From assembly GCF_009931435.1 (NCBI RefSeq), contig NZ_CP043414.1: a stretch of DNA of 64,000 bases. One strand, written 5' to 3'. The DNA is from Escherichia coli (GTDB lineage Bacteria; Pseudomonadota; Gammaproteobacteria; Enterobacterales; Enterobacteriaceae). Shown one piece after another: positions 31,601-34,600 of this stretch. The first letter of the stretch is position 1. Each line of letters begins with the position of its first letter. The position numbers are program-made.

Positions 31601-34600
31601 TTGGCAAAACGACCGTTTTTCTTGGACGTTTTCAGGACGGCTTTCGTAACGGTAAGAAAAATATTGTGTCGTTTTACGGCAACCTTTTACGGATTTATTT
31701 AAGCTCTCCGGTCTGGTTGTTGGTGAACTATTCATTACGCCATAGCCAGTTAGAAAGCGTAAGCGGTTTTATTGCCTATCGGCAAAAGCAAATGCACCTC
31801 CTGAAAGAGATTATTGCCAAACCACGGCTAACTGGCAGGGAATTTCATGATGTACGAAAAATAATCAGCCAGCAGGTTTCTTATTACGACACCCTAAGAT
31901 CGCTTGATCCTGAAAATAAAGAAGCGTTACAGATTTCCCGCTTCCTCGCCGCCATTAATGGCCTGATGGGGGATAAACACGACGACATGGTGGCGGATGA
32001 TATGGAAAACCGCCAGTCGTATGATGCACCGATGGCGCTGGATAGCGATATTCGTCAGCGCTTAGAACTGCTGATTTCGCGTTTTCCGCTATAACCGGAG
32101 CAATGATGTCATCTCGTTTGATTATTGCGCTGATTATCATGCTCTTAGCCCCGGGTGTGCAGGCGCACAATTTCGTCACTGGTAAAACGGTTACCCCTGT
32201 TTATATCCAGGAAGGCGGCGAGCTGCTTCTGAATAGCGACGACGAAATTCACTACCAAAAGTGGAACAGCACACAGCTGGCGGGAAAAGTCCGCATTATT
32301 CAGTATATCGCCGGGCGTAAGTCGGCGAAGAAAAAGAACTCACTGTTAATTAAAGCGGTTGAAGCGGCAAACTTTCCGCAGGATCGTTTTCAGCCCACCA
32401 CCATTGTGAACACCGATGATGCCATCTTTGGTACTGGCTATTTTGTCGTTGGCAAAATCGAAAAAAATAAACGCCGCTATCCGTGGGCGCAATTCGTTAT
32501 TGACGGCAATGGACAGGGACGCGTTGTCTGGCGGTTGCCGGAGCAGAGTTCAACCATTCTGGTGCTGAATAAAGCCGGGCAAATTCAGTGGGCAAAGGAC
32601 GGCAGCCTGACGCCGGAAGAGGTAGATCATGTCATTGCGCTGGCGCAGAAGCTGATCAATGAATAAAAATTCAAAGGATTGAGGGCGTTAGTGAGATGAA
32701 GCTGGTTGAACACTACATCATGCGTGGTACGCGCCGTCTGGTGCTGATTATCGTCGGTTTTCTGATCTTTATTTTCGCCAGCTACTCCGCACAGCGTTAT
32801 CTGACCGAAGCGGCAAATGGGACATTAGCTCTTGATGTTGTGCTGGATATTGTTTTCTACAAGGTGCTGATTGCACTGGAGATGTTGTTACCTGTTGGAC
32901 TGTATGTGTCAGTTGGCGTGACGCTAGGGCAGATGTATACCGACTCGGAAATTACCGCTATTTCTGCGGCGGGGGGGAGTCCGGGACGCTTGTACAAAGC
33001 CGTTCTTTATCTGGCGATACCGCTAAGTATTTTTGTCACCCTTCTGTCGATGTATGGTCGTCCGTGGGCTTATGCGCAGATTTATCAACTGGAGCAACAG
33101 TCGCAGTCGGAGCTGGATGTTCGCCAGTTGCGGGCAAAGAAATTTAACACTAACGATAACGGACGAATGATCCTTTCGCAGACGGTTGATCAGGATAATA
33201 ATCGCCTGACTGACGTGCTGATTTATACTTCTACTGCCAATCGAACCCGTATTTTCCGCGCCCGTTCGGTTGATGTAGTTGACCCATCACCCGAGAAACC
33301 GACCGTTATGTTGCATAACGGGACCGCCTATCTTCTCGATCATCAGGGGCGTGACGACAACGAACAGATCTACCGTAATCTGCAATTGCATCTGAATCCG
33401 CTGGATCAAAGCCCTAACGTCAAACGCAAAGCAAAATCGGTCACGGAGCTGGCGCGCTCCGCCTTTCCTGCCGATCATGCCGAACTGCAATGGCGACAAA
33501 GCCGTGGCCTGACAGCATTGTTGATGGCGCTGCTGGCCATTTCATTAAGTCGGGTAAAACCGCGGCAAGGGCGATTTTCAACGTTATTGCCACTGACGTT
33601 GCTGTTTGTTGCCATTTTTTATGGCGGCGACGTCTGCCGTACGCTGGTGGCTAACGGCGCGATTCCCCTCATTCCTGGTTTGTGGTTAGTACCCGGACTC
33701 ATGCTAATGGGCCTGCTGATGCTGGTAGCACGCGACTTCTCTTTGCTGCAGAAATTTTCCCGATGAATGTTTTCAGTCGCTATTTAATCCGTCATCTCTT
33801 TCTCGGTTTTGCCGCCGCCGCAGGGCTATTGCTGCCGCTCTTTACCACCTTCAACCTGATTAACGAACTGGATGATGTCAGCCCGGGTGGTTATCGCTGG
33901 ACTCAGGCGGTGCTGGTGGTGCTGATGACCTTACCGCGCACACTGGTCGAACTTTCGCCGTTTATCGCCTTATTGGGAGGGATTGTCGGCCTGGGGCAGT
34001 TATCGAAAAACAGTGAGCTTACCGCCATTCGCAGCACGGGGTTTTCTATCTTCCGTATTGCACTGGTGGCGCTGGTTGCCGGGATATTGTGGACTGTTTC
34101 ATTAGGCACGATAGATGAGTGGGTGGCGTCGCCATTGCAGCAACAGGCGCTGCAAATCAAATCGACTGCCACTGCGTTGGGGGAGGACGATGACATTACC
34201 GGCAATATGCTGTGGGCCAGGCGTGGTAATGAATTTGTGACGGTGAAATCGCTGAACGAGCAGGGCCAGCCGGTGGGCGTGGAGATATTTCATTACCGCG
34301 ACGATCTCTCGCTCGAATCCTACATTTATGCACGCAGTGCCACCATTGAAGACGACAAAACGTGGATCCTGCATGGTGTGAATCATAAAAAATGGCTGAA
34401 TGGCAAAGAAACGCTGGAAACATCTGATAATCTTGCCTGGCAATCGGCCTTCACCAGTATGAATCTTGAAGAGTTATCGATGCCGGGAAATACTTTTTCT
34501 GTCCGTCAACTTAATCATTACATCCATTATTTGCAGGAAACCGGGCAACCCAGCAGCGAATACCGCCTTGCACTGTGGGAAAAACTGGGACAACCCATCT

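What the first reader, a model, noticed from the sequence alone, without database searches (positions are those of the whole stretch)
32103..32666. YtfJ paralog with signal peptide inside the operon
The translation resembles the periplasmic protein YtfJ (segments TTIVNTDDAI and QWAKDGSLTPEEV), whose function is unknown. Its placement between the flippase and the LptFG-like permeases suggests a periplasmic handling or chaperone role for the locus product.
Basis: partly seen in the sequence, partly recalled or inferred. Interest (0 to 1): 0.35.

Follow-up and report, generated by a model that had tools for sequence, protein, structure and literature searches.

The report
Periplasmic YtfJ paralog in sphingolipid island
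The ORF is a real, secreted second copy of the unstudied periplasmic protein YtfJ; it is a fixed part of the enterobacterial sphingolipid synthesis and export gene island, which makes it a testable candidate for the unknown periplasmic step of bacterial sphingolipid transport.

Summary
Window 32103/32106..32666 (+) encodes a 186-187 aa YtfJ-family protein (Pfam PF09695 E=8.6e-59; TIGR01626 209 bits, cutoff 151). It is 54% identical over its full length to E. coli K-12 YtfJ and has a Sec-type signal peptide (…PGVQA|HNF).

The window is the E. coli yghT–yghO region. This is the published sphingolipid locus (aasR-cerR-acpR-spt, yghO=cerS, lptF2/lptG2), which K-12 lost through an IS5-associated deletion.

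- **Synteny:** 43 loci from about 12 enterobacterial genera hold the gene inside this island, across at least five rearranged architectures. It directly follows an orphan 274-aa gene in 41/42 loci, and the usual block is yghQ (flippase)-hyp274-ytfJ2. lptF2 follows it in only 32/43.
- **Canonical copy:** it always sits at cpdB-cysQ-ytfJ-ytfK-paeA and forms a separate clade.
- **Selection and location:** dN/dS is 0.10-0.14. It is the only predicted soluble periplasmic product of the 13-gene island.

Best reading, by inference only: a periplasmic accessory or lipid-handling factor of sphingolipid export. The ORF is already annotated; the functional context appears unreported. Interest is moderate.

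The parts
32106..32666 (+). ytfJ2 CDS (186 aa plus stop). An alternative in-frame ATG at 32103 would give 187 aa.
   Evidence: ORF list. Pfam PF09695 E=8.6e-59. TIGR01626 209 bits, above the 151 cutoff. 54% identity to K-12 YtfJ. RefSeq annotates 'YtfJ family protein'.
32097..32100 (+). GGAG ribosome-binding site, 5 nt upstream of ATG 32106.
   Evidence: Read from the sequence.
32106..32165 (+). Signal peptide, residues 1-20 (MSSRLIIALIIMLLAPGVQA). Predicted SPase I cleavage before H21; no lipobox.
   Evidence: Sequence inspection. It is the only hydrophobic segment of the protein. The A|HNF junction is conserved in orthologues.
32166..32663 (+). Mature domain: TlpA/DsbE/ResA-like thioredoxin fold with no cysteine.
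32310..32339 (+). A69-G-R-K-S-A-K-K-K-N78: the family motif AGRxSAKxxN at the position of the thioredoxin WCxxC active site. K72-S73-A74-K75 aligns to CcmG C80-P-T-C83.
   Evidence: hhalign of A1 against E. coli CcmG (weak, E=0.007, but topologically consistent with the fold matches). A69, G70, R71, A74, K75 and N78 are conserved in both clades and the outgroups.
32391..32420 (+). Q96-P-T-T-I-V-N-T-D-D105: the most conserved family motif (central beta-strand plus acidic turn). P97 is specific to the island clade; the canonical clade has T.
   Evidence: Alignments A1 and A2. Clade comparison. This pattern was also the one used for the genome scan.
32461..32467 (+). A7 homopolymer inside the CDS. 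A -1 slip produces the truncated 153-aa products seen in the protein database.
   Evidence: P0091 and P0102 read ...GKIEK|INAAIRGRNS, which is the +1 frame ORF 32416..32568. The exact A6 haplotype was found in 0 of 4123 complete genomes.
31270..32094 (+). hyp274: orphan all-alpha protein with no TM segment or signal peptide. Its start overlaps the yghQ stop. It directly precedes ytfJ2 in 41/42 loci.
   Evidence: No Pfam or NCBIfam hit. AF2 pLDDT 93.7, 11 helices. No PDB neighbour: best Foldseek E=0.095, TM 0.36. Synteny.
29915..31270 (+). yghQ: MOP/Wzx-type flippase. It is truncated in K-12.
   Evidence: Pfam Polysacc_synt_3. NCBIfam MOP flippase family, weak hit. Multiple hydrophobic segments. 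K-12 annotation.
32696..33766 (+). lptF2: LptF paralog.
   Evidence: TIGR04407 323 bits, above the 230 cutoff. PF03739 E=1.9e-55.
33763..34842 (+). lptG2: LptG paralog. Its start overlaps the lptF2 stop.
   Evidence: TIGR04408 307 bits, above the 240 cutoff. PF03739 E=2.1e-69.
28367..29869 (+). yghS (28367..29080) and yghR (29111..29869): paralogous P-loop, dTMP-kinase-like proteins at the head of the operon.
   Evidence: Weak Thymidylate_kin and P-loop hits below cutoffs. Conserved in the island.
27501..28193 (-). yghT: a third P-loop paralog, divergently transcribed.
34877..38958 (-). spt (34877..36049), acpR (36049..36297), cerR (36329..37243), aasR (37240..38958): the ceramide-backbone synthesis operon.
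   Evidence: Annotation. Pfam. Biochemistry of the E. coli BL21 orthologues ECD_02851-02854 in PMC9386255.
39321..40463 (+). yghO: the N-acyltransferase (bacterial ceramide synthase) homologue.
   Evidence: Annotation. PMC9386255 Fig. 9 legend lists yghO/ECD_02850 as the 'aca' gene.

Best explanation
ytfJ2 encodes a Sec-exported, soluble periplasmic protein with a TlpA/DsbE-type thioredoxin fold. The fold has lost its redox centre: there is no CXXC motif and no cysteine. It is a dedicated component of the enterobacterial sphingolipid island.

It is co-transcribed with the MOP flippase YghQ and the orphan cytoplasmic protein Hyp274, and in most genera with LptF2/LptG2 as well.

Proposed mechanism:
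1. The ceramide-based lipid is made on the cytoplasmic side by AasR, AcpR, Spt, YghO and CerR. The P-loop proteins YghR/S/T may decorate it.
2. YghQ flips it to the periplasmic leaflet.
3. LptB2-LptF2G2 extracts it.
4. YtfJ2 acts at the periplasmic face as a binding or adaptor factor. It would either hold the probably anionic head group in the basic pocket that replaced the thioredoxin active site (G70-R71-K-S-A-K-K-K, N102, D104, W53, W142), or dock on YghQ or LptF2G2 to hand the lipid on towards the outer membrane.

Shown: family membership, export signal, fold, loss of the redox site, island membership across genera, and purifying selection.

Inferred: periplasmic localisation, any contact with the lipid or the transporters, and the nature of the ligand.
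For: - **Family and paralogy:**
- **Signal peptide:** it is the only hydrophobic segment of the protein, and YtfJ2 is the only signal-bearing non-membrane product among the 13 island genes.
- **Context split:** of the loci classified by neighbours, about half are island loci and about half are canonical cpdB-cysQ-ytfJ-ytfK-paeA loci, never mixed. Genomes that have both copies keep them in their own contexts: E. coli L008/L069, Escherichia sp. E1V33 L010/L062, K. indica L017/L039, C. amalonaticus L013/L058.
- **Synteny survives rearrangement:** five architectures were found. ytfJ2 follows hyp274 in 41/42 loci and is followed by lptF2 in 32/43. A 43%-identical member (P0134) is still in the full operon.
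- **Selection:** dN/dS is 0.10-0.14, within the range of its neighbours at 0.02-0.15. The gene is present in 4120 of 5426 complete E. coli genomes.
- **Charge:** the island clade is more basic than the canonical clade (median net charge +5 against +1). Clade-specific K76, K117 and K120 replace E, S and S.
- **Literature:** LptF2/G2 are needed for sphingolipid export in Caulobacter and use the shared LptB. The periplasmic and outer-membrane components 'remain unknown', and LptC2 is restricted to Caulobacter (bioRxiv 10.64898/2026.04.12.717747). The canonical ytfJ is described as periplasmic with a sigma-E-recognised promoter (PMC4447067). In Salmonella it is co-regulated with yhbN (lptA, by my own knowledge of gene names) and tolB (PMC3022708).
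Against: - There is no experimental datum on this protein or on any YtfJ.
- The Caulobacter, Sphingomonas, Azotobacter and Pseudomonas luteola sphingolipid loci export sphingolipids without a YtfJ (PMC11324152). It is therefore not a universal part of the pathway.
- In 10 loci lptF2G2 are not co-oriented with ytfJ2, which weakens a specific YtfJ2-LptF2G2 partnership.
- Distant YtfJ-family members are stand-alone genes with no lipid context.
- It is not known whether E. coli expresses the island or what its final product is.
- The basic-charge trend is modest and the ranges overlap.
Confidence: 0.5

Rival explanations
1. YtfJ2 is a periplasmic enzyme that chemically modifies the sphingolipid head group after flipping, for example as a hydrolase or transferase. 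It would use the conserved polar cluster (R71, N102, D104/D105, D133, S149) on a re-purposed thioredoxin scaffold.
For: - The residues that replace the active-site region are strongly conserved and polar.
- Thioredoxin and peroxiredoxin scaffolds have been re-used for non-thiol chemistry (general knowledge, not tested here).
- The tight linkage to the flippase rather than to LptF2G2 fits a step directly after flipping.
Against: - No catalytic motif was recognised. No Ser, His or Cys is invariant across the family; the family-wide near-invariants are G38, W53, N102, G109, D133, G136, W142 and G166.
- No Pfam or NCBIfam enzyme family matches.
Confidence: 0.15
2. YtfJ2 has no specific role in sphingolipid biology. 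It would be a duplicate of a general sigma-E-type envelope protein that sits in the island and is carried along with it.
For: - The canonical paralog is a stand-alone gene with stress-type regulation.
- Distant family members have unrelated neighbours.
- Sphingolipid loci outside Enterobacterales lack it.
- Its dN/dS is at the upper end of the island's range.
Against: - It is retained at the same place (after hyp274) in 41/42 loci, through at least five rearrangements and down to 43% identity.
- Spacing is operon-like or overlapping, including a 14-nt overlap with lptF2 and a 4-nt overlap with hyp274 in L091.
- It shows purifying selection and fixed clade-specific substitutions.
- None of the island loci recovered by the ytfJ-based scan lacked the other island genes.
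Confidence: 0.15
3. YtfJ2 is the missing periplasmic redox partner that supplies reducing equivalents to the ceramide reductase CerR. CerR is reported to be periplasmic in Caulobacter, with no known electron source.
For: - It has a thioredoxin fold of the TlpA/DsbE reductase type.
- PMC11087976 states that CerR is periplasmic and that an unidentified electron-transfer partner is expected.
Against: - The mature protein has no cysteine, and the CXXC position reads K-S-A-K.
- No cofactor-binding motif was detected.
- E. coli CerR starts directly with its Rossmann GxxGxxG motif and has no signal peptide.
- The Caulobacter locus, where the problem arises, has no YtfJ.
Confidence: 0.04
4. YtfJ2 is a transcriptional regulator, as some database entries name its homologues.
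For: Source names such as 'putative transcriptional regulator' appear on P0029, P0068 and P0084.
Against: - It has a cleavable signal peptide.
- It has a thioredoxin fold with no DNA-binding domain.
- The canonical protein is listed as periplasmic.
Confidence: 0.01

Closest known systems
E. coli K-12 YtfJ (b4216) and the YtfJ_HI0045 family (PF09695 / TIGR01626)
   Same: It aligns over the full length at 54% identity and scores above both curated cutoffs. It has the same signal-peptide type and the same AGRxSAKxxN and QxTTIVNxDD motifs, and it also lacks Cys.
   Different: - **Context:** it sits in the sphingolipid island, not at cpdB-cysQ-ytfJ-ytfK-paeA.
- **Clade:** it forms a separate clade in an NJ tree.
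- **Fixed differences:** Y67/H, K76/E, F95/Y, P97/T, G116/S, K117/S, K120/S, A128/S, T150/A.
- **Charge:** it is more basic.
- **Function:** the family itself has no assigned function.
TlpA / DsbE (CcmG) / ResA periplasmic thiol-disulfide oxidoreductases
   Different: Only 9-18% identity. CXXC is replaced by K-S-A-K, the cis-Pro position aligns to Ser (weak alignment), and there is no Cys at all. It therefore cannot perform thiol-disulfide chemistry.
Caulobacter sphingolipid export set LptF2/LptG2/LptC2 (bioRxiv 10.64898/2026.04.12.717747; PMC11324152)
   Same: The E. coli island has the same logic: ceramide synthesis genes, a MOP-type flippase and an LptF/LptG paralog pair, with no second LptB.
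   Different: The enterobacterial island has no LptC2. Instead it carries hyp274, ytfJ2 and three P-loop proteins (YghR/S/T). The Caulobacter locus has no YtfJ. YtfJ2 is a soluble thioredoxin-fold protein, not a membrane-anchored beta-jellyroll like LptC.
Periplasmic lipid carriers MlaC and LolA (functional analogy only)
   Same: They are soluble periplasmic proteins encoded with inner-membrane lipid transporters. That is the role hypothesised here.
   Different: The folds are unrelated (from general knowledge of those structures). No MlaC or LolA family match was found, and none appeared among the listed structural neighbours. Lipid binding by YtfJ2 is untested.

Membership tests
YtfJ_HI0045 family (PF09695 / TIGR01626) | Scores above the curated HMM cutoffs over the full profile length | tested here: met
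   PF09695: 198.2 bits (cutoff 24), profile positions 3-159 of 160. TIGR01626: 209.4 bits (cutoff 151.1), positions 1-183 of 184.
YtfJ_HI0045 family (PF09695 / TIGR01626) | Full-length collinear similarity to E. coli YtfJ | tested here: met
   54% identity, 73% positives, 1 gap over 184 aa, E=6e-75.
YtfJ_HI0045 family (PF09695 / TIGR01626) | N-terminal signal peptide (periplasmic protein) | tested here: met
   An n-h-c signal with VQA|H, conserved in orthologues. By sequence inspection only; localisation cannot be tested here.
Canonical ytfJ orthologue (same gene as K-12 b4216) | Conserved position cpdB-cysQ-ytfJ-ytfK-paeA | tested here: not met
   None of those neighbours appears in any island locus, and the canonical copy exists elsewhere in the same genomes. 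It is therefore a paralog, not the orthologue.
Thioredoxin-like TlpA/DsbE/ResA oxidoreductases | Thioredoxin-like fold with TlpA-type extensions | tested here: met
Thioredoxin-like TlpA/DsbE/ResA oxidoreductases | CXXC redox motif at the N-terminus of helix 1 | tested here: not met
   The position aligns to K72-S73-A74-K75. There is 0 Cys in the mature protein in 34/42 island copies, 42/42 canonical copies and 11/11 outgroup members.
Thioredoxin-like TlpA/DsbE/ResA oxidoreductases | Conserved cis-proline loop facing the active site | tested here: inconclusive
   hhalign places the CcmG cis-Pro on S148/S149, but that alignment is weak (E=0.007, probability 5%). No structural superposition could be inspected.
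Peroxiredoxins (AhpC/TSA, BCP, Tpx) | Peroxidatic cysteine | tested here: not met
   No Cys in the mature protein. No AhpC-TSA or Redoxin Pfam hit at E<=1.
Lpt bridge proteins (LptC / LptA, OstA-like beta-jellyroll) | Beta-jellyroll OstA/LptC domain | tested here: not met
   No LptC or OstA Pfam hit. The AF2 model is an alpha/beta thioredoxin fold, and its structural neighbours are all thioredoxin-like.
Component of the enterobacterial sphingolipid island (operational definition: co-inherited with spt/cerS/lptF2G2/yghQ) | Conserved co-location across genera and rearrangements | tested here: met
   43 island loci with 5 architectures. ytfJ2 is adjacent to hyp274 in 41/42.
Component of the enterobacterial sphingolipid island (operational definition: co-inherited with spt/cerS/lptF2G2/yghQ) | Requirement for sphingolipid synthesis or export | not testable with these tools
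   This needs genetics and lipidomics. No published data were found.

The most novel reading that the evidence does not exclude
YtfJ2, probably working with YghQ and the orphan Hyp274, is the missing periplasmic sphingolipid-handling factor in Enterobacterales. It would be a lipid head-group-binding shuttle or adaptor built on a redox-dead thioredoxin fold, passing flipped ceramide-based lipid to LptF2G2 and the Lpt bridge.

By extension, the sigma-E-linked canonical YtfJ would do a related job for another envelope lipid. This would be a new class of periplasmic lipid-transfer protein and the first function for the YtfJ family.
Probability: 0.2. Interest if true: 0.7.

Novelty: new member of a known kind. 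Interest (0 to 1): 0.42.

Why it matters
[quoted passage not shown] The 2026 Caulobacter study identifies LptF2/G2 with shared LptB, but states that the periplasmic and outer-membrane components are unknown and that LptC2 is Caulobacter-specific.

The enterobacterial version of the locus is present in about three quarters of complete E. coli genomes, and also in Citrobacter, Serratia, Erwinia, Pantoea and others. It carries exactly one predicted soluble periplasmic protein, and that protein is this YtfJ paralog. That makes it a cheap, specific candidate to test.

It also gives the first functional context for YtfJ, a conserved periplasmic protein that is described as sigma-E-linked and has no assigned function.

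The wider point is that E. coli K-12 lacks the whole module because of an IS5-associated deletion. This is probably why these genes were never studied.

Tried and rejected
- **PDB sequence search:** no relative of YtfJ2 was found; the best hit had E=0.48.
- **Locus scan with the 98-sequence alignment:** It was repeated with the 21-sequence alignment A2.
- **Context of distant family members:** P0139, P0136 and P0132 are stand-alone genes that say nothing about lipids.
- **Promoter and terminator scan of 27400-40600:** counts were at the shuffle expectation, with no internal terminator or promoter worth naming.
- **Sigma-E promoter upstream of K-12 ytfJ:** eyeballing gave no convincing GGAACTT-N16-TCAAA match, so I rely on the statement in PMC4447067. 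The Rhodius 2005 sigma-E paper does not mention ytfJ in its held text.
- **Hyp274 against K-12 YtfI (the canonical ytfJ neighbour):** no homology; hhalign E=0.25.
- **Hyp274 fold search:** no PDB neighbour, so it gives no clue to the pathway.
- **Pseudogenisation in E. coli:** frameshifted 153-aa products exist in the protein database. The exact A6 haplotype is in 0 of 4123 complete genomes against 1229 exact A7 matches. These products are therefore probably rare mutants or homopolymer sequencing errors. An A6 allele combined with a nearby SNP would escape this test.
- **Redox-partner-of-CerR idea:** rejected because there is no Cys.
- **Complex prediction:** a linker-fusion AF2 run of YtfJ2 with LptF2 was considered but not run, because the tool returns no PAE or contact data to judge an interface.
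Full report

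Yes. The ORF at window 32103..32666 (+) exists, and its translation contains both quoted peptides.
- It matches Pfam YtfJ_HI0045 at E=8.6e-59 over essentially the whole profile.
- It scores 209 bits on NCBIfam TIGR01626, above the 151-bit cutoff.
- I took E. coli K-12 ytfJ (b4216) from NC_000913.3. A formal BLASTP gives 54% identity and 73% positives with one gap over 184 residues, E=6e-75.
- The probable start is the second ATG at 32106. GGAG lies 5 nt upstream, and RefSeq annotates 186 aa.
- The N-terminus MSSRLIIALIIMLLAPGVQA|HNF is a textbook SPase I signal without a lipobox. The A|HNF junction is conserved in the orthologues. This is a reading of the sequence, not a predictor run.

**2. 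What is the locus?**

The window is E. coli chromosome: hyb–gss–pitB–yghT/S/R/Q … yghO–glc.

The gene order is as follows:
- yghT (-)
- yghS, yghR, yghQ (MOP flippase), an unnamed 274-aa gene (hyp274), ytfJ2, lptF2, lptG2 (all +)
- spt, acpR, cerR, aasR (all -)
- yghO (+)

The biosynthetic half is published. The E. coli BL21 orthologues ECD_02850-02854 are the AasR/CerR/AcpR/Spt/YghO sphingolipid genes, with biochemical evidence for AcpR, AasR and Spt (PMC9386255).

LptF/LptG paralogs in the Caulobacter sphingolipid locus were proposed (PMC11324152) and then shown genetically and biochemically to act in sphingolipid export with the shared LptB (bioRxiv 10.64898/2026.04.12.717747). That preprint shows the E. 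coli UTI89 locus in a figure. It states that the periplasmic and outer-membrane components are unknown and that LptC2 is confined to Caulobacter.

None of these papers mentions YtfJ. Of the 47 papers in the library containing the string 'ytfJ', the few I opened mention it only in passing, in gene or protein lists.

K-12 lacks the gene because an IS5 (insH9) sits between a truncated yghQ and yghO, where hyp274 through aasR should be. The 8.2-kb segment is at least 80% present in 4087 of 5426 complete E. coli genomes, and ytfJ2 itself in 4120.

**3. Is the gene really part of this system?**

This was the main test.

Close homologues (60-71% identity) exist in Citrobacter, Pseudocitrobacter, Serratia, Erwinia, Pantoea and Klebsiella indica. 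The three contexts I first looked up all showed the same operon.

A scan of one genome per species returned 80 loci. I classified them by tblastn of the neighbours. They fall into two clean classes:
- Island loci, with YghT/S/R/Q, Hyp274, LptF2/G2, Spt, CerR, AasR and YghO. The genera are Escherichia, Citrobacter, Pseudocitrobacter, Hafnia, Shimwellia, Mangrovibacter, K. indica, Serratia, Pantoea, Erwinia, Sodalis and Rosenbergiella.
- Canonical loci, with cpdB-cysQ-ytfJ-ytfK-paeA.

The two classes never mix. Genomes with both copies keep each in its own context.

In an NJ tree the canonical copies form one tight clade and the island copies form the neighbouring groups. This was a distance tree with no support values. 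A 43%-identical member (P0134) still sits in the complete operon, overlapping both neighbours. A 44%-identical one (P0129) is in the canonical context. Both lineages are therefore old.

The island has been rearranged into at least five architectures:
- ytfJ2 directly follows hyp274 on the same strand in 41 of 42 informative loci.
- lptF2 follows ytfJ2 in only 32 of 43.
- In Rosenbergiella, two MAGs, Pantoea coffeiphila and Erwinia sp. JUb26, lptF2G2 are divergent or distant while yghQ-hyp274-ytfJ2 stays intact.
- In Sodalis, ytfJ2 follows spt.

The stable unit is thus flippase–Hyp274–YtfJ2, and the whole 13-gene set travels together.

dN/dS of ytfJ2 between Escherichia lineages is 0.10-0.14. 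That is constrained, though at the loose end of the island's range of 0.02-0.15.

**4. What kind of protein is it?**

The family is small: 386 clusters at 50% identity with E<=1e-3 in 1.8 billion representatives. No solved structure is detectable by sequence.

A profile alignment to E. coli CcmG is weak (E=0.007) but collinear. It puts CcmG C80-P-T-C83 on YtfJ2 K72-S73-A74-K75, inside the family motif AGRxSAKxxN, and the cis-Pro on S148/149.

Independent of that alignment, the mature protein has no cysteine. The same holds for 34/42 island copies, 42/42 canonical copies and 11/11 outgroup members. Thiol redox chemistry is excluded.

Residues conserved across both clades and the outgroups include G38, Y50, W53, K61, A69-G70-R71, A74-K75, N78, Q96, N102, D104-D105, P126, D133, G136, W142, S149, K164 and E172.

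Nine positions separate the island clade from the canonical clade. Three of them add lysines: K76, K117 and K120 against E, S and S. The island clade is more basic, with median net charge +5 against +1, though the ranges overlap.

Among the 13 island products, YtfJ2 is the only one with a signal-like N-terminus and no other membrane segment.

**5. Most likely mechanism**

The steps shown are: a secreted family member, a redox-dead thioredoxin fold, obligate membership of the enterobacterial sphingolipid island, and purifying selection.

The inferred step is that it acts in the periplasm on the flipped sphingolipid or on the export machinery. It might bind the head group in the basic pocket that replaced the active site, or adapt YghQ or LptF2G2 to the downstream route. 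I put this at about 0.5.

Rivals:
- A periplasmic head-group-modifying enzyme (0.15). The conserved polar cluster favours it, but there is no catalytic motif and no invariant Ser, His or Cys.
- A passenger with no pathway role (0.15). This is hard to reconcile with the synteny.
- A redox partner for CerR (0.04). PMC11087976 reports a periplasmic CerR without an electron source in Caulobacter. However, YtfJ2 has no Cys, E. coli CerR has no signal peptide, and Caulobacter has no YtfJ.
- A transcriptional regulator, from legacy annotation (0.01).

Supporting colour for an envelope role of the family: the canonical ytfJ is listed as periplasmic with a sigma-E-recognised promoter (PMC4447067). In Salmonella it is ppGpp-dependent together with yhbN and tolB (PMC3022708).

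**6. Comparison with the known**

It is a member of the YtfJ family; all sequence criteria are met. It is not the orthologue of K-12 ytfJ, because the context test is not met.

It has the fold of TlpA/DsbE oxidoreductases but fails their defining CXXC feature, so it should not be filed as one.

It is not an LptC/LptA-type beta-jellyroll. Any resemblance to the lipid carriers MlaC and LolA is functional analogy only.

**7. Novelty and score**

The ORF is already annotated as 'YtfJ family protein', and the island is already recognised as a sphingolipid locus. The following appear to be new:
- The gene is a distinct, island-bound paralog lineage across Enterobacterales.
- yghQ-hyp274-ytfJ2 is the invariant block.
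- The protein has a cysteine-free thioredoxin fold.
- It is the island's only soluble periplasmic product.

This is a solid, testable lead for an acknowledged gap, not a surprise in kind. Interest: 0.42.

Noticed in passing
window 31270-32094 (+): The 274-aa gene between yghQ and ytfJ2 has no Pfam or NCBIfam match. It gives a confident all-alpha AF2 model (pLDDT 93.7, 11 helices) with no PDB neighbour (best Foldseek E=0.095, TM 0.36). It has about 54 invariant residues across 35 orthologues and precedes ytfJ2 in 41/42 loci. It is an orphan fold tied to the sphingolipid island.
   Followed up: partly
window 27501-28193 (-), 28367-29080 (+), 29111-29869 (+): Three paralogous P-loop proteins (YghT, YghS, YghR), annotated 'dTMP kinase' on sub-threshold hits, are conserved members of the island in every architecture. 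They may be lipid or head-group kinases or nucleotide-dependent accessory factors. The RefSeq name 'dTMP kinase' is probably wrong.
   Followed up: no
L094 (NC_000913.3 3129043-3132408), corresponding to window ~30200-40463: In K-12 an IS5 (insH9) lies between yghO and a truncated yghQ, exactly where hyp274, ytfJ2, lptF2, lptG2, spt, acpR, cerR and aasR sit in this window. The laboratory strain has therefore lost the sphingolipid module.
   Followed up: yes
window 32461-32467: An A7 run lies inside ytfJ2. The protein database holds many 153-aa products that match a -1 slip here (P0091 on 120 contigs; P0102). The exact A6 haplotype is in 0 of 4123 complete genomes. These are probably sequencing errors or rare mutants, not phase variation, but this was not fully resolved.
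   Followed up: partly
L003-L065 (island loci): The 13-gene island exists in at least five gene orders (A-E in the notebook). The lptF2G2 pair and the yghSR/yghT block move independently, while yghQ-hyp274-ytfJ2 and aasR-cerR-acpR-spt stay intact.
   Followed up: yes
window 27501-40463 versus L008: Synonymous divergence between this window and another assembly labelled E. coli (L008, strain SCPM-O-B-8794) is 0.23-0.69 per site across the island, which seems high for a within-species comparison. Most complete E. coli genomes are only 95-99% identical to the window here, and 512 are 90-95% identical in ytfJ2. This suggests deep allelic lineages or recombination in this region.
   Followed up: no
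L031 and L074: Two assemblies labelled Martelella alba (an alphaproteobacterium) and Chryseobacterium sp. 18061 carry typical enterobacterial loci: the island at 61-78% identity, and the cysQ-ytfJ-ytfK context at 81-94% identity. They are probably mislabelled or contaminated assemblies.
   Followed up: no
window 36329-37243 (-): E. coli CerR begins directly with its Rossmann GxxGxxG motif (MNQTVAVTGATGFIGKY) and has no signal peptide. Caulobacter CerR is reported to be periplasmic (PMC11087976). The topology of the reduction step may differ between the two lineages.
   Followed up: partly
window 27400-40600: The island contains no second lptB, lptC, lptA or lptDE. As in Caulobacter, LptF2G2 would have to borrow the housekeeping ATPase and bridge.
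   Followed up: partly
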